From positions 60,388,001-60,452,000 of the forward strand of contig OZ024742.1 in the NCBI GenBank assembly GCA_964016885.1: DNA of 64,000 nt, written 5' to 3'. Made by a program: the position numbers and the translations under genes. The stretch is from Eledone cirrhosa. Its lineage: Eukaryota. The notes beneath the pieces are model-generated. The model was given only the letters and a program-made list of their open reading frames with translations. It was not told the DNA's origin and did no database searches. Shown here piece after piece: positions 6,850 through 56,198 of this stretch (its first letter is position 1; each line of letters begins with the position of its first letter).

Positions 6850-9365
6850 TTATTAAAATAACAGATTAAAGTTTAAGCAAAGAATCGCTGCTTTCACCCT
6901 TAACAGGATCTTCTGAACCTAAAAAAGTCAATCTGTGAACTCAGAAATAAATATTTCAATAAACCTTGTAGCCGGAGGAAGACAGGAAGACGATACTCTG
7001 GTTCGTGGAAACGTTCCTTGGCAAAAAACGGAAAAAAACGAAGATAATACGTCATTATGTGGCGCGTTGAGAACAATTGCACGCAAAGACAAAACCACGT
7101 AAATGGTATAACTGAAGTCGTAGACTAAAATTCTAACTAGGAAACCGAATGATTCTCGGCTTCTGAGTTAAGAATAAAGTAAATAAAATACAGAGGTAAT
7201 TGAAATAAATAAATACATACACGCATCCATATACATACATATACAAGCATACGCAAAACACTCGCCATAGCTATACAAATACAAGCATGTACACAAAAGA
7301 ACCAGCACGCACATACAGAACCCACGCAACGCCTGTGCTCGCACACATACGAAAGTATACACCAAATACACATAAAAATATATTTAAAAAAAATATATAA
7401 GTGTGTTTGTTGTGTGTGTGCGTGTATACATATAATTAAATAAACGTATATAAATAAATAAATACGTATATAACGCGCTCACACACATACCTACATGTAA
7501 ATATACATATGTTCGGAGACGTAGGTCGACGAAAACACAAAGTACACATATACACACACCCTGCATACGTACGAACCCGCATACCCACATAGACGCAAAG
7601 CTCGCGTATACACATAACCAAATGCACATGTACCAGAATATATAATATATACGCCATAACATACACAAACAAATATACGTACGAGAAAGTATACTTACCT
7701 TCACAAAACATACAGGTAATATATACATACCTATACAAATAATTAATGGTATAAACATAACATATACTTAGCTACCACATTAAGACGTAATATAACCGCG
7801 TATAGTTCGTACTATCCGTTAGGGTATAATGAGGAGCTGTAATATAGGAAAGTTTTGTGCAATTCATGTTTACAAGCCGAAATTGCTTCATATTTTTTTG
7901 TTTTAGATGTGGTCTTTGGAGTAGAATATTTCCCTGGCCTCAGCGGCGCAGAGGTCACATGGTCTTGTATTTCCGTTATACGATCTAGCCCTAGCTAGGA
8001 TCTCCCAGTGTAACTTATATTGGGTGTGGTTGTCTTTTAGACTCCCGATATAAGCTGAAAGTGACGTCATATTTCTCCTTAAAGAGTCAAGAAAAGAATG
8101 AGTATGCATGTAAAGACGCTGCTTGAATCTATTGGCGGTTAACTTTATGTAGGCCCTACGGGACGTGGGTATTTCCACCTTACATTTGTAGACAATGTTA
8201 CTAGAGAGCCATTTCCCGGATAGGGGGCAGACAACCCGATTCCTACAATTACAGTTAGTACTAGCTACAGGGTTGCACGTGTTCCTACGGCTAGGTAGTT
8301 TAGCTAAAATTGAAGCTGTGAGGTTATGTGCAAGGTTAAGAGTCGTAGAGTAAGACATTTTAATGGTATTTCTATTAAAAATGTTACTATATTTATGTGC
8401 ACAAAACTTTCCTCTATTACAGCCCCACATTATACCCTAACGGATAGTACGCACTATACGCGGATATTTTACTTCTTGATGTGGTAGCTAAGTATATGTT
8501 ATGTTTATACCATTAATTATTTGTATAGGTAAGTATATATTACCAGTATGTTTTGTGAAGGTACGTATACTTTCTCGTACGTATATTTGGATTGTGTATG
8601 TTATGGCGTATATATTATATATTCTGGTACATGTGCATTTGGTTATGTGTATACGCGAGTTTTGCGTCTGTGTGAGTATGCGGGTTCGTACGTATGCAGG
8701 GTGTGTGTATATGTGTACTTTGTGTTCTGGTCGACGTACGTCTCCGAACATATGTGTATTTACATGTAGGTATGTGTGTGAGCGCGTTATATACGTATTT
8801 ATTTATTTATATACGTTTACTTAATTATATGTATAATCGCACACACACATACATATATATATATCATTTTTTATATATATTTTTATGTGTATTTGGTGTA
8901 TACCTTCGTATGTATGCGGGCACAGGCGTTGCGTGGGTTCTGTATGTGCGTGCGGCTTTTTTGTGTACGAGCTTGTATTTATATACCTATGGCGAGTGTT
9001 TTGCGTATACTTGTATATGTACGTATATGGATGCGTGTATGTATTTATTTATTTCAATTACCTCTGTATTTTATTTACTTTATTCTTAACTCTGAAGCCG
9101 AGAATCATTCGGTTTCCTACTTAGATTTTTAGTCTACGACTTCTGTTATACCGACTGCAAAGTTTTTTGAAATATTTACTTATGCTTTCACAGATTGACT
9201 TTTTAGTTTCAGAAGATCCTGTTAAGGGTGATAGCAGCGATTCTTTGCTTAACATTTAATGTTATTTTAATAAATATTTGCTCTACGGTTATTATATATT
9301 TGATATATATTTATCCATATCGAGCCCTCTTTGGATTTTGTGTCTTCAAATTTATTATTATTACT
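6850..9365 (-). mobile_element. 5'-truncated PLE family B (- strand 6850-8400) with inverted copy of its 3' region (8398-9365)
   Basis: ~900-bp inverted arms around a GIY-YIG remnant; (TA)n on both sides; further copy at 43458-45108. Confidence 0.9.
7812..8400 (-). pseudogene. PLE linker + GIY-YIG endonuclease remnant (CxC..CPL.G type)
   Basis: IFNRNTIKMSYSTT..NCNCRNRVVCPLSGKWLSSNIVYKC..AYIKLTANRFKQRLYMH..LSAYIGSLK..WEIL..CDLCAAE. Confidence 0.88.
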
Positions 9366-9474: not shown

Positions 9475-9767
<293 letters not shown>

Positions 9768-12445: not shown

Positions 12446-12930
12446 TCGTTTCTGAATTTGTTTAGCAAGATTCTTTATCTGAAATCGTGTGTTGAAACCG
12501 ATATTGTTATACTTTGGGAGGGTCATGTTGCCAATAAGAAACACACGCACCAGTTGCTTTCACTTCAATTTATTATATATTTATAAATTTATAAATTTAT
12601 AAATTTCTGGTTGGTTGGTTCCACAACCAGATAGTTGTTTATATATAGTCATAGTTCTTTCGTCACACACTCTGTGACCTCTTCAGTGACTGGGGATTCC
12701 TTTCTTTGTTTCCGTGCCTCTCCTTTTTTTCTTCTTTGTTCTGTCCTACTGAAGAGGTCACAGAGTGTGTGACGAAAGAACTATGACTATATATAAAGAA
12801 CTATCTGGTTGTGGAACCAACCAACCAACCAGAAATTTATAAATTTATAAATTTATAAATATATAATAAATTGAAGTGAAAGCAACTGGTGCGTGTGTTT
12901 CTTATTGGCAACATGACCCTCCCAAAGTAT

Positions 12931-33065: not shown

Positions 33066-33757
33066 AGAATGGTTACTTTAAGAGTTGTTTACCTACGACT
33101 TAACTTGCAAACTTAATTAATGTGCGCATGCATGCATATGTTTATAAATTTAAATTTACATGTTTATTATCGTGTAAATTTTATCATAGGTACATCGAGG
33201 ATATATCTGTGTACATACATGATTTACTATATAAGCATGACGTAATCTACTGGAACTCATTTTTTTCCAAACTTCTCTCATGATATGCAGTTTTAAACTA
33301 CTCAGTGTAAGATAGTGGATTGTGGATTATATAATAATCCAGATTCCGTAGGAGATTGCATAACTATATAGGAGCACTTGTTATAGACTCTATTGTATGA
33401 TAAATGTTTCTTCGAATGTCAACAAATCTTTCCTAATTATTCCTATTAACCTTTCATATTAAATTAATCGGTAGAATACTCTTTGAAACCAATGTACCAT
33501 ACTCGGTGATGCATCTCGTATCAAGATATTTATGTTACACACATCCATTAGCCACGCCAAGCACAAAACACTAGAATATACACGTACACACACACACACA
33601 AACATATATATATATAAATATAAATTTATACATAGATATATGTATATATATATATATATAACGAAGGAAATGTGGTAAGGAACCAGGTGGACCATAACGC
33701 ACCAAAGTACTCAATACTTGGGGTAGTAGAGTGGGTAATAGGAACCAGTAAGACCCC

Positions 33758-34318
33758 TCTTACAGCACTACACCAAACTTCGCACAAAACATCGTCTCCT
33801 CTAACAACAAAAAACTCAACCCCGATGGCAGAAATAACCTAAATAGCAGTGGAGAACCGACCAGGAGGTGTAACAGTCCGGATAGATCCATTTGCCCACT
33901 CGACAATAGATGTAGAGACCGTAATGTGATCTACCAGTGCAACGTGAGGACGGATACCTCCAACAAAGCCTATATAGGACTAACCGCATGTGACTTCAAG
34001 ACCCGGCTATACCAACATAGACATACCTTCCGAAACCCGGCCCAGAGTCACGCCACTACACTTTCGGGCCATATATGGGACCTCAAGGACAACAACATCA
34101 CCTATGATCTCACTTGGAGATTACTGTCCAGAGCCTATTCTTACACGGGAGGACGCCGTCCGTGCAATTTATGCTCGGAGGAAACTTTACAAATGCTGTT
34201 TTCGACGGACCAACTCCTAAACAAGAAAGATGAACTGGTTACTGCATGTAAACATAGATTGCGTAGGACTTACCTCGCCCTCAAACCCCATAAGGACCCG
34301 GGGGGGGGGGGGGGTTAG
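33758..34318 (+). pseudogene. PLE GIY-YIG endonuclease (5'-truncated, frame open)
   Basis: SYSTTPNFAQNI..CNSPDRSICPLDNRC..NVIYQC..AYIGLTACDFKTRLYQH..LSGHIWDLK..WRLL..CNLCSEE..LNKKDELVTACKH. Confidence 0.9.
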
Positions 34319-35427
34319 ACTAGGGCTATAACACCCCACTTGCCGATTTTGCAATGGGTAACCCCTGCTTGCCAAGGGAGACGTAAGATCTTTTATTCTT
34401 TTATCGCTTCCTTTATTTCCTTCTTCCCCCCATCCCTCCTTAGTCCTTCTACCCCAGCTCTTCTTCTTTGTCGGCGTCTTTTCTCGCCCACCCGAGGCTG
34501 CTCTTTGGCCCCTTGTAGCCTCTGTACCCCCACCCCCTCCCCTAGTCTATGATAGATTTGGCGGACTCCGCTTTTTATAGCAGTTGGTTTAGACCCCGGA
34601 TACTTGCCCCCTTTTTCCGACCACTGCCACTATTTTCCGTGCCTTCTATATTTCTTAGTGGCACTTATGCCTTATTTTCTCGTTTCAGTATTTCTTTCTT
34701 CGCTTTTCTTTTGGGCGGGGTGGATTCTGAATTAATTTTTCCGTATTCTACCTTTACTTCGTACGAACTTTCATGTAGCTTGTTTTAGATCTTTTAGAGT
34801 TAGCATTAGTATATATTTTTTTCGGGACTCAGAACTATTATCTCGTACTAGTTTACTTTGCTGCACTGGGTGGTTGCTGGCATTGTGCCCGGGATAGAAA
34901 CCTTTATTATTTATTTCGTGGTAGTCTCTTTAGTATTTTGGCCCCATTTGTTGACCCGTCACCGTATGATTTACGTACTTATACCTCTTAAAAGGGTCCT
35001 TGCCTATTCCGTCCCACCTAGTTCATTTACTTATTTCGTTATTTCTTTATTTATTTCTTTACTTCTTTCTTTCTTTATTTATTTTTTTATCTAGCCTAAC
35101 AATAGCTAGAGACTTAGGTCGTAGAACTTGCTTTACTTTTTTCTTTACACTTATTCGCTTTTCTTCACTCTCAGTATCTCTTCTTTCATATATATTTGTA
35201 CCCCTCATTGTTCTACCTACCGTTCCGACTTCCTCCCCCTCCCCCTCCCCAGTATCTTCTTTGACCTCATGCGCAGCTGTAGCTGGCACTACCAACGCTT
35301 GATTGGGTCTACTCCACCCCCTCCCCTCTTTCTCCTACTGGCAGGTTTAGCCACCATCTCCCCTACTAATTTGCAATCACAGAATTACTACTGACTTTTG
35401 ACAATCACTTTGACCATATATGGAATT

Positions 35428-35530
35428 ACCCCTTGAGAAGATCGGCTATTTAAATACCAGGATAAATTTTCATTTAGTCCAGAATTAGCCGTCGAAACGG
35501 CTTGAGCTCAGCCGTCTAAAAAAAGGGGGT
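35428..35530 (+). ncRNA. Type I HHR (U3/A8 variant, long stems II and III), interrupted at its cleavage site
   Basis: acccc-TTGAGAA-ga(t)cggcta..tagccgtc-GAAA-cggc t tgagctca gccg-TC-[taaaaaaag]-ggggt. Confidence 0.85.
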
Positions 35531-35540
35531 CTTACTGGTT

Positions 35541-35585
<45 letters not shown>

Positions 35586-36992: not shown

Positions 36993-37767
36993 TATTTATA
37001 TAAATATTTATACAAATAATTTTAGTGAGTATATATGTTGTTTTTATTAAAAGATAGATCATTTAAATATCTTTTATATGTGAATAGTTAGGATGAATTT
37101 CCTGTTTACAATTTCAATATATATTTAAGAAAAAGGAGGTAGTTCTATTTTATTATAGAAGATTATTTTGTACATTCAATATTTGCATCAAGATAGGAAT
37201 ACATTTACAATTTACGAAGTAAACGAAAATTATACAACACAATTTTAAATTGTATCTAATGTTTAGTTGTTACTTTGAAGAAATGTGTAAGCGTGTTACA
37301 TTATAAGGGAAAAGAATACTCCAATATTTCTTAGTTAAGATATTTATATTTACCAATTAATTCTAGAATTTACTTTTCAAAAGATATTCCAATTAAGATA
37401 TATGTAAAATATTACATATTTTCTAGATAAAAATTCTTTTATATATGTATTTAGATGGCATTCCTTATATTTATGCATGTGAGAGTGATATTAAGCATAT
37501 ATATGTATTGACGTCTATATAGTCTATTAGGAAGAAATATTCTAGACATAAAAATAATATTCAGAAAACATCACTAAAACCATCACAAAAAGGTATATTT
37601 CAAAATATCATTTAGAAAACCATTTTAAAGGGATGTCATTTAGAAAGAAATATCATTTAAAAAGAAAAGAAAAATATCATAAAAAAAAACATCAGAAAAC
37701 ATCATCAAAACATAGTGAATATGTATAAGATGTAAACAAGTGAGATATAGATAATATTTCCTATAGA

Positions 37768-38890
37768 TTATAGATGCTTCTGAACGTCTTGGATTGGCGA
37801 CGATGTGTGCAAGAATTGAATAATTCTTTCTTTTTATTTATAGAGTTTGATTGATAAGTATATGAAATATTTCTTCAGTACACATATGACAAATTCTTGA
37901 GAGAGCCATATTTCGGTATGCGGGCGCTTTCGAAATCGTTTCCCAAGAGAGTGAGTAGTCGATATTATTGTCTTTTAAGGACTAAATTAGATGTGAAAGT
38001 GATGTTGAAAGACTTTTGTCCGATGTATTAAAAGTATGTTTGTGACTATACCAGCGTTCGTTAAATTTTGTAGAAGTGTTTCCTATATAGTTATATATTT
38101 TATCTCTAGTTTTTATTGTGCATTTATATACTAAGTTTTTATCAATTATTCTGTAAAGGGCAATTTAATTCGTTTCTACAGTTACATTTTCTAGAGTTGT
38201 CGTCTATAGGAACGGTGCGATTATTGTTAGTATTAATACTGTTATTAGTAATATTAATATTGTTATTTTGCTTTATTTGGATTGGGGTTAAATTTAAGTA
38301 TCTATTATTAATTCTCTTAATATTTTGCGATATGTGGAGTAAGATAGTTTTATAGTATGTCTGTAAGATAATTTTATAGTATGTCTGTTAAAAATAGAGT
38401 GGTATTTATGGGATTTAGGAACAAGCTTATCTAATGCTTCGAAAAATAGGCTTGCTACAGGTGTTTTAACTCCTAATGAGATTGGGGGAGAATACCAAAT
38501 GATATTTCTATTTCTAGTTCTTTTGTTTGATTTACTATTTATGGTAAATTGCTTATTATTATTATTATAGTAAATTTTCGGATGGTTTTGCATGTTATTG
38601 TTATCTAGCTATTTAATTTTATTCTTGTAACCAGCTCTATGTAGAGTATCATTGTAATAATCTGCCTTATTATCAAACATATTTTTATTGGCTGAAATGC
38701 GTGAAATTCGTTGCTGCACACTATTGACAATAGCATTTTTAACATTTCTAGGATGGTTAGAATGGAAGCTTACGTAGTTTAGGTTTTCTTTAATTTTATG
38801 GAAAGGGTTAAACAGTCCTGAGCTAAGGTTTAAAGTGACATCTAACAAGTTAACAGTGTTATTATTATTCTCAATTTCTAATTTAAGGTT
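37768..38890 (-). pseudogene. PLE RT C-terminus/thumb + GIY-YIG, inverted truncated copy
   Basis: ORFs 38609-38905 (VNLLDVTLNL..SNHPRNV) and 38294-38593 (RNIIWYSPP..IFNRHTIKLSY). Confidence 0.9.
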
Positions 38891-39759
38891 ATAATTATCA
38901 AACATACTTTTAATAGATCGGACAAAAAATGTTCAATATCACTTTCACATCTAATTTGGTACTTAAAAGAAAATAATATCGACTACTCAATCTCTTGGGG
39001 AACGATTTCGAAAGTACCCGCGTACCAAAATATGGCTCTCTCAAGAATTTGTCATTTGTGTATTGAAGAAATATTTCATATACTTACCAATCAAAACTAT
39101 AAATAAAAATATATAATTATTCAATTCTTGCAAACACCACCAATCCAAGACGTTCAGAAACATCTATAATTTACACTATAACTAATACGATCCATACATA
39201 TATATATTAATAATAATAGTCTATTCTAACTATAATATATATTTTTTCTTATATTCTTCCCTTAAATGTTCATACACCCTAATATTAACCCCTCTCTCTT
39301 CTTCCCTTAATAAATAACACTAACAATTATTTAAATGTACCTAACGTCTAAATATAACAATCTTTTTCAACTTTAGGTTACCTTCATTAACATATTCATC
39401 CTAGGATTTGAATTTCTTTCACTATTCAAACAGAACTTAGAACGATAAGTTATTGTTCTTGAATATGTCACTATCTATAAAACAACTTTTATATTTTATC
39501 TGATGAGAGCGTACCAAACAATGTTAGTACACTTGAAATATATAAAATAAAATAAATATGGTTTTATAAAGATAGTTTCCATTTATTAATATTATTGATA
39601 TTATACTCCAGAAGAAACGTGTAAAATGCTTCGAATATGTTATGAATAAATATGTTGAATAACCAACAAATCAAATAGCTTTTGCTTATAAATAGATCCT
39701 TCAATGTAGAGCACTTTAAACTATAACAGATTATAAAGAATTAATAATGTAATCTTTTA

Positions 39760-41953
39760 ATATCTCTTCATCTCTCAAGGATGTACCTTTACCTACCAAT
39801 AAGGAATATTTAAAACAGCTAATAAAAAATCTGACTCTTTCATAAGGAGACTGAGATGGCGCGCTTTCCAATTGAAAAAGAAATCAGAAAATGAAAAAAT
39901 AAATCTAAATATAACTTTGATCTTATATTTAAATCTAGGCAAAATCCACCTTTCAACAAACTATTAGCTGAATTTGAAAATGAAATAATCTCCATAATAC
40001 AGAATGTTAAATTTAAAAGTAGCCAATCAAAGGCCTCAAAAGCAAAATAGACAACCTGAAAAAAACAAAGAAGATCCTCGTAAAATCCGACAAAACTAAT
40101 AATTGATACGGAATGGAAAAGGATGATTATAATAATTTAATATAGAAAGAACTTAGGAAGATATATAAAAAAAGAACATAACTTCGGAAATTATTTACAA
40201 ATTATGTATTCAAAATAAGACTGAACCTTTCATATCAAGGAAACCGAAGATAAATATGAAGGACCATAAAAGAAATTTCGAAGTGGAACTACCAGTCAGA
40301 CTTATTGCACCATCTAAATCTGATTTAGACATAATTAGCAAGCATATACTAGATAGGATCATACCAGTACTTAAGCACAAATCACACCTTAAACTCTTGA
40401 ACAAATGAAGTAATAGATTGGTTTGCAGACATTAAATTAAAACATAGAAAAAGAATTTATGCAAATGGAAATTGCTAATTACTACTCCTCAATTACCCAT
40501 AACTTACTTAATAAGGCACTTATTTACACTTCAAAATATACTAACTTATCTAGTAATGAAATTAATATCATTTTAACCGCACGGAAAACCCTAATTGAAT
40601 TTAATAACCATCTCTGGAGAAGAGCTGATAGACAGAACAATTTTGATATCACTATGGGATCATCTGTCTCAGCTCAAGTAACATACCTCGTTGGAATTTT
40701 TATTCTTAAAGTACTACATAGAAAAATGGTTGAGATGGCCCGAGGTTTATAGCGCGACGATATGTTACTTATAGTTGATAACCATAGCAATAGTGAACTT
40801 AGTAGGGAAAAGAAAATTTTCATAGAATTCTTCAATAACCTTAAATTAGAAATTGAGAATAATAATAACAGTTAACTTCTTAGACGTCACTTTAAACCTT
40901 AGCTCAGGACTGTATAACCGTTTCGATAAAATTAACGAAAACCTAAACTACGTAATCTTCCATTCTAACCATCCTAGAAATGTCAAAAATACTATTGTCA
41001 GTAGTGTCCAGCAACGAATTTAACGCATTTCAGCCAATAAAGCTATTTTTGATAATAAGGCAGATTATTGCAATGATGCTTTACATGGAGCTGGTTACAT
41101 GAATAAAATTAAATAGTTAGATAACAATAACATGCAAAATCATCCGAAAATTTACTATAATTATAATAATAAGCAATTTAACATGAATAGTAAATCAAAC
41201 AAAAGAACTAGAACTAGAAATATTATTTGGTACTCTCTCCCAATCTCATTAGGAGTTAAAACACCTGTAGGAAACCTATTTTCCAAAGCATTAGATAAAT
41301 GTTTTCCTAAATCCTATAAATACTACTCTATTTTTAAAAGACATACTATAAAACTAACTTACTCTACTACTATGAACATAGCGCAAAATATTTATAGAAT
41401 TAATAATAGCTACTTAAATTTAACCCCAACACAAATAAAGCAAAATAACAATATTAATATTACTAATAACAGTATTAATACTAATAATAATCGTACCGTT
41501 CCTATAGACAATAACGCTAGAAAATAAAACTGTAGAAACGAATTAAATTTCCCTTTACAGAATAATTGTCTAGATAAAAACTTAGTATATAAATGCACAA
41601 TAAAAACTAGAGATAAAATATATAACTATGTAGGAGCCACTTCTACATAATTTAAGGAACGCTGGTATAATGACAAACATACTTTTAATAGATCGGACAA
41701 AAGTTTTTCAACATCACTTTCACATTTAATTTGGTCCTTAAAAGACAATAATATCGACTACTCATTCTCTTGGGAAACGATTTCGAAAGCGCCCGCATAC
41801 CGAAATATGGCTCTATCAAGAATTTGTCATTTGTGTACTGAATACTTATTTCATATACATATCAATCAAACTCTATAAATAAAAAGAAAGAATTATTCAA
41901 TTCTTGCACACATCGTCGCCAATCGAAGACGTTCAGAAGCATCTATAATCTAT
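39760..41953 (+). pseudogene. Full-length PLE ORF (RT + C-terminal GIY-YIG), multiply disrupted, Hydra-clade-like
   Basis: SLKDVPLP..FIRRLRWRAF; KSDKTNN; KDHK..PVRLIAPSKSDL..ISK; FDITMGS; GL*RDD; FLDVTLNL; SNHP; RNIIWYS; NCRNE..PLQNNCL..LVYKC..YVGATST; CHLC; CTH. Confidence 0.92.
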
Positions 41954-43414
41954 AGAAAATATTATCTATATCTCACATGTTTATATCGTATATATCTTCA
42001 CTATGTTGTGATGATGTTTTGCGATGTTTTTTTAATGATATTTTTCTTTTCTTTTTAAGTGATATTTTTCTAAACGACATCCCTTTTAAATGAAAATCTA
42101 AATGGTATTTTGAAATATACCTTTTTGTGATGGTTTAGTGATGTTTTCTGTATATATTTTAATGTCCAGAATATTTCTTCCTAATAGACTATATTGACAT
42201 CAATACATATATATGCTTAATATCACTAACATATGCATAAATATAAGGAATGCTATTTTAAAATAATTTTTATCTTAGAAAATATGTAATATATGATACT
42301 GTAAAATCATATATAAAATGATATATATTTTTTAGATATATTTTACATATATCTTAATTGGAATATTTGTTTAAAATAAATTCAGAATTAATCGGTAAAT
42401 ATAAATATTTTAACTACGAAATATTGGAGTTATTTTTTCCTTTATAATGTTACCCACTTACACATTTCTTCTAAACAACTAAACTTTACATACATTTTAA
42501 AATGTTGTATAATTTTCGGTAACTTCGTAAATTGTAAATGTATTCCTATCTTGATGCAAATATTTAATGTACAAATTAATATTCTATAGTAAAATAGAAC
42601 TACTTCCTTTTTCTTAAATATATATTGAAATTGTAAACAGGAAATTCATCCTAACTATTCACATATAAAAGATATTTAAATGATCTATCTATTAATAAAA
42701 ACAACATATATACTCACTAAAATTATTTATATGAATATTTATATAAATTAACCTGTTGTAATATAACAAAATAAAATATACTTACAACCCTAATACTTCA
42801 TAAAACATACTTATAAATATTATCTCTATAATACTAAAACTCAATATTAGAATAGACCCAATAATTAGTAGTATCTATCATTTTTTTTGTATTTGGTATT
42901 CTACCACTTCAACACATTTATAATTCTCATAATATATTATAAATACTACCAAAATATATTATAATTATTTCACTCACTTTACACCATAACTAATACGATC
43001 CATACATTTATATATTAATAATAATAGTCTATTTCTAACTATAACATATATTTTTTCTTATATTCTTACCTTAAATTTTCATACACCCTAAAATTAACCT
43101 CTCTCCTTCTCTTAAAAAATAACACTAATAATTATTTAAATTTACCTAGCCTCTAAATATAACTGTCTTTTTCAACTTTACGTTACTCTCATTAAAATAT
43201 TCATCCTAGGATTTGAATTTCTTTCACTATTCAAACGGAACTTAAAACGTTAGGTTCTTGTTCTTGAATATGTCACTATCTATAAACAACGTTTGTATTT
43301 CATCTGAGGCGAGCGTATCCAAAAAATGATGGTGCCCTTGAAATATATATAATAAAATAAATATGATTTTATAAAGATAGTTTCCATTTATTAATACTAT
43401 ATATATATATATAT

Positions 43415-49907: not shown

Positions 49908-51817
49908 TATATATTCTCTTATGGTCGTTTTGGAAGCCTCAACAATGCAGAAGGGTAAATCTCCGGGTAACAAGATCCGGTGGTGAAGAGAGAGATGTAA
50001 GTGAATGTAGAATGAGATGTATAGTGTGTAGAAGAACGTAGGAAAGAGCGTAAAAAATAAAAATAATAACACGAGATAGATTTACCTCGGGAGAGATTTA
50101 ATTGTCCCTATATTTCGGATTCACATCCAGTAACTGGGGGATTTTCCGGGGTGGGGGAGGTTATATGTCGGACAGGAGCGATATGTGTGTCCTCTGTTGT
50201 TCGTTGTTTTGAATATCTGAGGTATTCAGCAGAGCGCGCGTGCACGCGGAATAAGTTCGGTCAAGCAAAGGTCGACGACCGGTATAGTTCTTTTAATTGT
50301 GTGAGTGGGGTGGCGTTAGCTCTCAATCCATTGTATCTATCTGTGATGGTTTCTGTATTAGCCGTTTATTCGTATGGTGGTGGTATTCGCCTGCCTGTTT
50401 GGTGAATGCTACTGTGTGTGTGTGTTGTTTTTCTCGCTTGTGTGTGTGTGTGCGTGTGTTGTCTCTTTTGTTTAAACCAACCACCTCATTTTTTCTGCCT
50501 GTTTGGTGAATGCTACCGTGTGTGTGTGTGCGTGTGTTGTTGTCTCGCTTGTGTGTGTGCGTATGTGGTTGTCTCGTTTGTTTAAACCAACCACTTCATT
50601 TCGCTTCTCTTGGATCGGTTATTTATTTGTGGCCCTAGGCGTTTGATCCAAAGTGCTTCCTTGATTCGTAACGTGACGACGTTGCGTTCTGGCGCTAGCA
50701 CTGTGACGATGGGCCTTCCCTCTTTGTTTCCGATTTGGTTATGTGTTTCCGGAAAGTCGGCCCTGGTGTTGATGTGCTCCTTGATCCGGATGTGTAGCGG
50801 CCGGATTGTGCTACCGATATAGTAGTGGTTGCACTTGTCACATTCTACCTTATACACGACGTATGTGCGTAGGCAACAGTTCATATGGCGCATCAGACAG
50901 TTTCTGAGGGAGCACGCGTCAGTCGATTTCCCGGGTTTCCTGGAGAGGCATCTTCGCAGGGAAGGGCCCGAGTGGGCCAGGTGGATGTCGAGGCCCTCCC
51001 TCCATATAGCCCTGCCGATAGCGTTGGTGGTTTTCTCGCCCAGGTGTGGTATTTTAAGGAAGCACCTGCCTTGGGTGTTTCTCTGGCTCTTGCGTCTGGT
51101 GTCTCTTATTCTGTTAGTGAGCGAGGCAGGGTACCCGTTCGTCTCCAGGACTTTGAGGAATCGCTTGGTATGGATGACACCACTCGCCGGATCGCTGCAT
51201 CTGTTTTTAATTCGCATGATCTCGTTCGTGACGTACCCTCTTTGAGCACTGTATAGGGAGGGCAGACCTGCTAGACAACCCCTCCCCCCACACACACAGT
51301 AGCATTCACCAAACAGACAGGCGAATACCACTACCATATGAAACACTGCTAATACAGAAACCAGCACAGATAGATACAATGGATTAAAAGAACTAATCCG
51401 GCCGTCGACCTTTGCTTGACCGAACTTATTCCGCGCGCACGCACGCTCTGCTGAATACCTCAGATATTCAAAACAATGAACAGTAGACGATATGTATCGC
51501 TCCTCTCCGACAGATAACTCCCCCCTCCCCACTCGGAAAACCCCCCAGTTGATGAATGTGAATCCGAAATATTGGGACAATTAAATCTCTCCCGAGGTAA
51601 CTCTATCTCGTGTTATTATTTTTATTTTTTACGCTCTTTCCTACGTTCTTCAACACACTATACATCTCATTCTACATTCACTTACATCTCTCTCTTCACC
51701 ACCGGATCTTGTGTACCCGGATAATTACCCATCTGTATTGTTGAGGCTTCCAAAACGACCAAAAGAATATATATCTTATTATTCCACAATGCTTCAAGCA
51801 AACTTGAATACTCTCTT

Positions 51818-55460: not shown

Positions 55461-56198
55461 AAAAACAAATAACGAAACGAAATTAAATTTCGTTTCGTTT
55501 GTAACTCACTTTTGTATGACTGACGAATAGGGGGAAGGTGTTCCCCCGAAAAACCAGTATGACTCTAAAAACCGGTTTGTCTGTGTGTTTACATACAAAA
55601 TAGCTGGGCCGCTCACTGTAAAGCGACCAGTGAAAGACTTGGTACACCTACATATGTATACGTGTGTGTATTCATATACACACTAGTATTTCAGTATGCA
55701 TATGTAGATGTACATTTTTAACTTAATTGTTTAAGCGTCAGTCATACAAAAGTGAGTTACAAACGAAACGAAATTTAATTTCGTTTCGTTATTTGTTTTT
55801 ATCGTCTCCGCTGAACCGCTACGTACTCACGCTCTATGCAAATTAGTCTGCCCACTACTAATTTTCATAGAAAAAGCATATAACGATATGTGCTTTTACA
55901 ATTCTCCAGAAAGGCCGGTAGATAGGTAAATATTGCTGATGAGTTGTAACAACAACGAAACTAGTTCAATATTCCTTGTCTGGCTTTCTGGAGAATAGGG
56001 GGAAGGTGTTCCCCCGAAAAACCAGTATGACTCTAAAAACCGGTTTGTCTGTGTGTTTACATACAGAATAGCTGGGCCGCTCACTGTAAAGCGACCAGTG
56101 AAAGACTTGGTACACCTACATATGTATACGTGTGTGTATTCATATACACACTAGTATTTCAGTATGCATATGTAGATGTACATTTTTTTTAACTTAAT
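55461..56198 (+). mobile_element. Retrozyme-like 468-bp HHR unit (~1.43 tandem copies) with 65-bp inverted left arm and apparent TSD
   Basis: 55525-55728 repeated at 55993-56198; 55461-55525 is the reverse complement of 55736-55800; tattataattaa at both borders. Confidence 0.88.
55929..55973 (+). ncRNA. Canonical minimal type I HHR
   Basis: aatattg-CTGATGA-gttgt aaca acaac-GAAA-ctag-TT-caatatt; perfect stems, palindromic loop III. Confidence 0.93.

What the first reader, a model, noticed from the sequence alone, without database searches (positions are those of the whole stretch)
35511..35530. Extra T-A7-G exactly at the hammerhead cleavage site
Seen: other family C copies read gccgTC|ggggtcttac (reverse strand at ~9667 and ~60406). 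This copy reads gccgTC-taaaaaaag-ggggtcttac, with the 9 extra nt exactly between C17 and stem I'. Inference: a fossil of an RNA that self-cleaved, was oligo-adenylated (which requires resolving the 2',3'-cyclic phosphate), and was then re-ligated or bridged by RT template jumping to the downstream fragment. This would be in-genome evidence that this U3/A8 variant cleaves in vivo, and of a tailing step in the PLE cycle.
Basis: partly seen in the sequence, partly recalled or inferred. Interest (0 to 1): 0.85.

Follow-up and report, generated by a model that had tools for sequence, protein, structure and literature searches.

The report
Tailed ribozyme cuts fossilised in retrotransposon
Fifteen insertions of a Penelope-type jumping gene in this animal genome carry different short A-rich extras exactly where its RNA is predicted to cut itself, most likely because cut and tailed RNA was copied back into DNA, which would be rare evidence that this ribozyme works in the living animal.

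Summary
The 9 extra bases (35517-35525) sit directly after C17 of a complete type I hammerhead (U3-A8 core) in a young Hydra-type Penelope-like element (3,531-base unit, 780-codon frame). Genome searches found 14 insertions of this family and 1 of a sister family with different 5-30-base A/U-rich inserts there, against 16,828 seamless junctions. A control window showed none in 100 of 173 listed length gains. The decisive link: the mirror arm of the same insertion stops at the cut site in 8 of 10 tailed insertions, but in 0 of 41 long and 0 of 57 ordinary seamless ones. About 22 of 50 listed head-to-head joints also end there. Best reading (0.6): cut, tailed, linear RNA bridged by an end-to-end jump of the reverse transcriptase. 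Cutting in vivo is strongly supported (about 0.9). Tailing is a rare side route (0.08%), not a step of the cycle. Seamless long copies come from a continuous template, possibly a circle. No RNA or bench data. The scan earlier noted this copy's stopped arm and single cut-site cases in other genomes.

The parts
33661..33757 (-). Inverted partner arm of the same insertion (primed about 97-100 bases downstream of the cut site); its RNA-sense 5' end is the first G after the cut site
33758..34318 (+). 5'-truncated end of the element's open frame: linker CxCX5C and GIY-YIG-type endonuclease region
   Evidence: motif description
34319..35425 (+). Long pyrimidine-rich 3' untranslated part of the 3,531-base unit
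35426..35516 (+). 5' part of the type I hammerhead: stem I strand 35426-32, U3-A8 core TTGAGAA 35433-39, stem II 35440-48 with 35486-93, GAAA 35494-97, stem III 35498-502 with 35510-14, U16.1 and C17 at 35515-16
35474..35479 (+). Initiator-like TTAGTC in loop II; A at 35476 (41 bases before the cut) is the inferred transcription start of the family
   Evidence: arm-end histogram; initiator consensus recalled
35517..35525 (+). The insert TAAAAAAAG, inferred copy of an RNA 3' tail (last G ambiguous)
35526..35542 (+). 5' end of the downstream cleavage product (stem I' GGGGT) up to the near priming site
35543..35582 (.). (TA)n target; a second (TA)n run precedes 33661

Best explanation
The insert lies exactly at the hammerhead's predicted cut site and is most likely the DNA copy of a short U/A tail that was added to the self-cut RNA end and then bridged by a jump of the element's reverse transcriptase. 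Steps: (1) inferred: a unit-length RNA is cut by the ribozyme at both ends, giving a 5' end at GGGG and a 3' end at GUC. (2) Inferred: instead of being re-joined, the 3' end loses its cyclic phosphate and is tailed by host terminal transferases, often U first, then A with some G. (3) Shown in the DNA: insertions have two mirror arms that begin about 20 and about 100 bases downstream of the cut site at (TA)n targets. (4) Inferred: on a cut linear RNA both arms run off the 5' end at GGGG; one usually stops there (shown: 8 of 10), the other jumps onto the tailed 3' end and continues into the element. (5) Shown: each tail is private to one insertion; inferred: it disables that ribozyme copy, so the route is a dead end. 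Seamless long copies come from a template that is continuous across the site.
For: Fifteen insertions with different inserts at one position. No such insert in 100 of 173 listed gains of a control window (by eye). Partner arm ends within -1..+3 of the cut in 8 of 10 tailed insertions with a partner (L007, L008, L020, L029, L094, L095, L096, L231) against 0 of 41 long seamless copies (p = 7e-8) and 0 of 57 ordinary seamless insertions (counted by eye; p = 7e-9). 13 of 16 tailed arms run on through the whole ribozyme against 20 of 105 sampled arms (p = 2e-6), so the inserts are not late mutations in random copies. About 22 of the first 50 of 499 short head-to-head insertions have both arms ending in the G run, 17 with untemplated filler (by eye). 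A exceeds T in RNA sense in 12 of 14 inserts (p = 0.006); one is AC plus 28 A; pyrimidines are enriched next to C17 (35 of 69 against 14 of 69 letters). Inserts match neither the element nor their own loci better than shuffles (p = 0.48, 0.19, 0.28). Both arms of L097 carry the same TAAAA. One junction is trimmed by 12-13 bases and then tailed (L146). U-then-A tails with single Gs are described on germline mRNA decay intermediates (PMC9935398, passages). End-to-end jumping is known for R2 reverse transcriptase (PMC8857657, passages).
Against: No RNA-level or bench evidence here. Two inserts are T-rich (L020, L092) and three end in TT or TTT next to GGGG, which fits additions on the cDNA side. 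In L097 both arms cross the site, which fits a tailed circle or a fold-back copy as well. L012's partner stops 5 bases short of the cut. Five tailed insertions have no partner arm to test. Untemplated addition measured for R2 enzyme is 3-4 bases, but long tailing also occurs in vitro, and the addition preference of this enzyme is unknown. For the anole element, ribozyme cleavage was not needed in vitro and no RNA reads ended at the site (PMC11167929). Some arms end at GGGG through GG or CCG microhomology without any cut (L105, L107; 8 of 50 joints set aside as ambiguous).
Confidence: 0.6

Rival explanations
1. The RNA was cut but not tailed. The extra letters were made on the DNA side during the jump: untemplated addition by the reverse transcriptase or a repair polymerase, or a first jump onto a stray A-rich RNA fragment followed by a second jump onto GUC.
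For: Head-to-head joints at the cut show 1-6 untemplated or filler bases. T next to C17 in 8 of 14 inserts and T next to GGGG in 3 of 14 could be added As on cDNA. R2 enzyme needs untemplated addition to jump. It explains the stopped partner arms equally well.
Against: Inserts are 5-30 bases, longer than the fillers at head-to-head joints. The cDNA would need long T-rich additions, including a 28-T run. Two independent additions would not both give TAAAA in L097, unless one arm was copied from the other. No templating source found.
Confidence: 0.22
2. The cut RNA was tailed and then ligated into a circle that includes the tail, and both arms copied that circle.
For: L097 has the same insert in both arms. 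Perfect tandem arrays of up to about 4.5 near-identical units suggest circular templates for the family.
Against: In 8 of 10 tailed insertions the partner arm stops at the cut, whereas on continuous templates 41 of 41 partners cross. RtcB-type ligase needs a cyclic-phosphate end and a 5'-OH (PMC6789731, abstract and section titles), and a tailed end would have lost the former (inference). No tandem array with a repeated tail was seen in 20 long loci.
Confidence: 0.1
3. The RNA is never cut. The enzyme stalls at the folded ribozyme core, adds letters or stops, and restarts one base further on.
For: Stem III begins three bases upstream of the site, and 8 of 50 joints have an arm ending at -2 or -3. 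Uncut RNA was the main substrate for the anole element in vitro.
Against: 16,828 junctions are crossed without a trace. Tailed arms run straight through the -41 position where 59 of 105 ordinary arms end. Stops peak at the scissile bond, not at the stem base. A stall does not explain a poly(A) run in RNA sense.
Confidence: 0.05
4. The inserts are later DNA mutations, repair scars or assembly errors unrelated to RNA processing.
For: The site is a CpG next to a G run that mutates often: 234 hits, mostly G-to-A, and plus or minus one G in 47 of 100 and about 54 of 100 listed rows.
Against: Control-window gains are local duplications. The inserts are strand-biased, and they are tied to arm length and to where the partner arm ends up to 2.7 kb away, which a later mutation cannot know.
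Confidence: 0.03

Closest known systems
Hydra-clade Penelope-like elements (Craig et al. 2021, PMC8557442; passages and section 11 read, supplements not read)
   Same: Single frame with reverse transcriptase and C-terminal GIY-YIG endonuclease, DKT motif, CxCX5C linker, CxxC and CxH around E and N, hammerhead, (TA)n targets, partial tandems, inverted 5' copy and one-sided tail.
   Different: Unit is 3.5 kb (Hydra generally under 3 kb), RWR for RWK, one-sided tail about 80 bases rather than 30-40. The passages read call ribozyme function unclear and describe no junction inserts.
Poseidon element of the green anole, PAc (Frangieh et al. 2024, PMC11167929; parts 1-2 of 4 read)
   Same: Two internal priming sites downstream of the ribozyme site, both target strands extended, AT-rich targets.
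   Different: There cleavage was dispensable in vitro and no RNA reads began or ended at the site; here genomic copies record ends and inserts at the site.
PLE hammerheads and the circular-template proposal (Cervera and de la Pena 2014, PMC4209133; parts 1-2 of 4 read)
   Same: U3-A8 core variant (Schistosoma Cercyon elements), unpaired base before stem II, long stem II; proposed cut, ligation and more-than-unit copying.
   Different: [quoted passage not shown] Their metazoan motifs mostly lack a stable helix III, while this one has a 5-pair helix III and folds as a monomer. Tailing is not part of that proposal in the parts read.
R2 retrotransposon 5' junctions set by its HDV-like ribozyme (Eickbush et al. 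2013, PMC3774820; passages read)
   Same: Genomic junctions record where a ribozyme cut the template, with untemplated bases at run-off.
   Different: R2 additions lie between cDNA end and target DNA. Here they lie between the two products of one cut, inside the element, and look like RNA tails.
U6/LINE-1 chimeras made by RtcB (Moldovan et al. 2019, PMC6789731; abstract and outline) and animal retrozyme circles (PMC7229834; passages)
   Same: Cyclic-phosphate and 5'-OH ends joined at RNA level and then retrotransposed; a model for the seamless class.
   Different: Those joints need the untailed end; the tailed class here behaves as unjoined linear RNA.
U-then-A re-tailed decay intermediates in human oocytes and embryos (Liu et al. 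2023, PMC9935398; abstract and passages)
   Same: U runs followed by A with single Gs on shortened 3' ends.
   Different: Human mRNA, read as RNA; not ribozyme ends and not fixed in DNA. Resemblance only.

Membership tests
Endonuclease-bearing Penelope-like element | One frame with reverse transcriptase followed by GIY-YIG endonuclease | tested here: met
   780-codon frame with YRDD, FLDV, VIY..YIG and FKTRLYQH motifs read by eye (motif names recalled). Atlas neighbours at 0.96-0.99 carry HTH_animal, RVT_1 or GIY-YIG in a minority to majority of members. Pfam scan gave 0 families.
Endonuclease-bearing Penelope-like element | Partial tandems, inverted 5'-truncated copy, one-sided tail | tested here: met
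   inverted partner arm with its junction in 41 of 60 long copies; ends at +20 or about +100
Hydra clade | DKT motif, CxCX5C linker, CxxC and CxH flanking E and N, (TA)n targets | tested here: met
   SDKT, CNCPDRSIC, CNLCSEE..LLNK..CKH; definition
Hydra clade | RWK motif and length under 3 kb | tested here: inconclusive
   RWR instead of RWK; unit 3,531 bases; the paper says 'generally' short
Hydra clade | Groups with Hydra elements in a reverse transcriptase tree | not tested
   no reference sequences fetched
Type I hammerhead ribozyme | Three helices around the conserved core with C3-G8 or U3-A8, GAAA and UH | tested here: met
   U3-A8 variant described; Rfam models did not match
Type I hammerhead ribozyme | Self-cleavage after H17 | not testable with these tools
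   indirect genomic support only
Non-LTR retrozyme | Small non-coding tandem unit of about 170-400 bases | tested here: not met
   unit is 3,531 bases and codes a full protein (size range)
RNA 3' tail made by terminal transferases | Untemplated, A-rich in RNA sense, attached at an RNA 3' end | tested here: inconclusive
   untemplated and A-biased; presence on RNA not observed

The most novel reading that the evidence does not exclude
This genome records all three fates of a Penelope RNA. Capped transcripts that start inside the ribozyme give the short mirror copies; ribozyme-cut units that are re-joined into 3.5-kb protein-coding circles are copied by rolling-circle reverse transcription into seamless long copies and perfect arrays; and cut units that the host tails first stay linear and leave stopped arms and tailed junctions. 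Host tailing would then compete with circularisation and limit transposition.
Probability: 0.4. Interest if true: 0.92.

Novelty: new variant of a known kind. Interest (0 to 1): 0.78.

Why it matters
What the hammerhead does in Penelope-like elements is an open question: cut-and-circularise was proposed in 2014 without in vivo evidence, a 2021 survey still calls the function unclear, and the one in vitro system found cleavage dispensable and saw no RNA ends at the site. This family gives a counted, controlled genomic record that cut RNA is used as template, names exact RNA ends and tails to look for, and separates linear from continuous templates by a two-arm test that can be run on any genome with young Penelope copies. 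I found no report of such inserts in searches of the open-access library; subscription papers and all supplements were not seen.

Tried and rejected
Rfam scan: 0 matches. Pfam: 0 families for both proteins. One search was swamped by substitutions at the CpG and gave no new inserts. Plus or minus one G at the site: about equally common (47 of 100 listed gains, about 54 of 100 listed losses), so treated as slippage and not counted as evidence. Deletions did not show a clear class of 3'-trimmed junctions (by eye). The (TA)n-anchored search returned redundant rows and too few single arms for a histogram. Templated origin of the inserts: not above shuffles. Canonical polyadenylation: the only signal-like hexamer is GATAAA 56 bases upstream, too far by recalled spacing rules, and most tails are mixed. 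Fixed subfamily feature: rejected, all tails differ and occur in three subfamilies by two marker sites plus a sister family. Sequencing runs: no RNA holder listed. Contigs of four runs did not cover this particular insert, and none of the five listed indel rows lies at the cut; contigs show presence only, so neither is used. Dropped or unseen rows: 87 of 187 gains, 73 of 173 control gains, 28 of 128 losses and 449 of 499 head-to-head insertions were not listed; inserts over 33 bases, and G-starting inserts in the CTG subfamily beyond the first 100 rows, were not searched; the control window's denominator was not measured; one G-starting oddity (L152) was left unclassified; L169 could not be parsed; the 60 long copies were picked from the 150 best protein matches with frames under about 570 codons and are nearly all of the youngest subfamily.

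Full report
Observation. The window reads GCCGTC TAAAAAAAG GGGGTCTTAC at 35511-35535, while the copies near 9667 and 60406 lack the nine bases. The upstream sequence completes a type I hammerhead with a U3-A8 core. An insert-free copy folds into the three-way junction as its lowest-energy structure. The U3-A8 variant is described for Schistosoma Penelope-like elements (PMC4209133). The insert's left edge is fixed at C17; only its final G is ambiguous.

The element. The copy spans 33661-35542 between two (TA)n runs: an inverted arm, then the 3' end of a frame with a GIY-YIG-type region, a long 3' untranslated part and the ribozyme. A protein search returned 150 scored matches at 98% identity, many in open frames of 784 codons. 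A tandem array gave the unit: 3,531 bases from cut site to cut site, one ribozyme, one frame. Its motifs fit the Hydra clade as defined in PMC8557442 section 11; I did not build a tree. Insertions have two mirror arms that begin about 20 and about 100 bases downstream of the cut site, matching the two internal priming sites reported for the anole element (PMC11167929). Any arm longer than that must cross the cut site.

Is the insert more than chance? Junctions of normal length number 16,828. Length gains in the 20 bases around the site number 187; of the 100 listed I count 47 extra Gs, 9 non-duplicated inserts of 5 or more bases at C17, 1 junction trimmed by 12-13 bases and tailed, and otherwise local duplications or slips. 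A genome-wide search for inserts of 3-33 bases starting with A, C or T gave 15 hits: 14 tail junctions in 13 insertions and 1 duplication. A sister family gave 1 more. All tails differ between insertions. In a control window downstream, the 100 listed of 173 gains show no untemplated A-rich insert (by eye; its denominator was not measured). If 9 inserts fell at random among 21 positions, the chance of all at C17 is about 1e-12.

What the inserts look like. The 14 family inserts total 219 letters: 64% A, 24% T, 8% G, 4% C in RNA sense. A exceeds T in 12 of 14, 8 of 14 begin with T, and one is AC plus 28 A. Pyrimidines are commoner in the third next to C17 (35 of 69 against 14 of 69; letters are not independent). 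They match neither strand of the element nor their own loci better than shuffles. U-then-A tails with single Gs are described for germline decay intermediates (PMC9935398); that is a resemblance only.

The two-arm test. Each insertion has two arms, so one arm reports on the template of the other. Of 15 tailed insertions, 10 have a partner arm: 8 stop within -1..+3 of the cut, 1 stops 5 bases short (L012) and 1 crosses with the same TAAAA (L097). In 60 long copies picked by protein match, 59 junctions were in view and none had an insert; 41 had a partner arm and all 41 cross the site (p = 7e-8). Among the first 100 seamless rows, 31 paired and 26 fetched insertions had partners and none stopped at the cut (by eye). 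In a second sample chosen for a substitution at the first G, 4 of 105 arms ended within -1..+3. Tailed arms are also unusually long: 13 of 16 against 20 of 105. Independently, 499 insertions have two arms meeting within 30 bases; of the first 50, 22 have both arms ending in the G run (17 with filler such as a single A or T, 5 as CCCCGGGG where a CG overlap is possible), 8 are ambiguous at -2 or -3, 16 join through the GAGCTC palindrome or stem III, and 4 are other (by eye). A strict pattern finds 355 arms that begin at GGGG after unrelated sequence; some of these arise by microhomology.

A second RNA end. 59 of 105 sampled arms end 34-46 bases upstream of the cut, around an initiator-like TTAGTC or TCAGTC. 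Six of 7 ends at -41 are preceded by a non-reference G, and joints such as GGACT-CAG-AGTCC occur. I read this as a capped transcription start inside loop II (cap copying and the initiator consensus are recalled). Such RNAs lack the 5' half of the ribozyme, would not be cut there, and explain the many short seamless copies.

Mechanism. Shown: positions, counts and correlations above. Inferred: tailed copies came from RNA with a free 5' end at GGGG and a free, tailed 3' end after GUC; one arm ran off and stopped and the other jumped end to end. A tailed end has lost the cyclic phosphate that RtcB needs (PMC6789731), which would explain why tailed RNA behaves as linear; removal of that phosphate by a host enzyme is assumed from recalled knowledge. 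Long seamless copies never show stopped partners, so their template was continuous: a re-joined circle or uncut multimeric RNA. Arrays of up to about 4.5 units whose units differ by 0-1 or 6 substitutions within an array and by 3-52 between arrays fit a circle but do not exclude transcripts of earlier arrays.

Against. There is no RNA or bench evidence. Two inserts are T-rich. L097 can be read as a tailed circle or a fold-back. Additions by a polymerase on the DNA side remain possible. The anole study found cleavage dispensable. Tailed junctions are 14 against 16,828 (0.08%), so this is a side route and not a step of the cycle.

Comparison and novelty. The element is a member of a known kind. 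R2 junctions already record a ribozyme cut (PMC3774820), and cut-and-circularise was proposed for Penelope elements without in vivo evidence. I found no description of tails or stopped arms at a Penelope hammerhead in searches, or in the parts read of PMC11167929 (parts 1-2 of 4), PMC4209133 (parts 1-2 of 4), PMC8557442 (passages, section 11), PMC7229834, PMC4918200, PMC3846280 (passages) and bioRxiv 10.64898/2026.07.22.740005 (part 1 of 5, passages). No supplements were read; Fig. S2 of PMC11167929 and the supplementary files of PMC8557442 may bear on this.

Verdict. Observation confirmed. Cutting in vivo about 0.9; RNA tail plus jump 0.6; interest 0.78; new variant of a known kind.

Noticed in passing
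window 35474-35479 and family-wide (L061-L090, L161-L193): Most arms end 34-46 bases upstream of the cut site, with a non-reference G before ends at -41: a likely capped transcription start inside the ribozyme's loop II.
   Followed up: partly
L141, L142 (G000:C1:437195500-437215000), L149, L150: Perfect head-to-tail arrays of the 3,531-base unit, up to about 4.5 units in one arm, with units sharing array-private variants; fits rolling-circle copying.
   Followed up: partly
G000, 499 insertions listed, e.g. L100/L101: Minimal insertions of two arms joined as CCCC-A/T-GGGG exactly at the cut site.
   Followed up: partly
window + strand near 55931 and 63137, - strand near 12691: Three further hammerhead-like motifs with a canonical CUGANGA core from a crude pattern scan.
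   Followed up: no
L114 (G000:C1:98559027-98562049): Both arms end at the cut site with about 320 bases of sequence between them that looks like an internal piece of the element's frame: a possible jump from the cut 5' end onto an internal RNA fragment.
   Followed up: no
L200, L106, L231: A sister family with the same stem III region but a different sequence downstream of the cut; one of its copies also has an A-rich insert and a stopped partner arm.
   Followed up: partly
first G after the cut, family-wide: 234 hits, mostly single substitutions; G-to-A dominates (CpG decay), but G-to-T and G-to-C also appear and were not compared with other positions.
   Followed up: no
window 36994-42748, 7105-9152, 49970-51712: Large inverted repeats of other families, possibly further two-armed insertions.
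   Followed up: no
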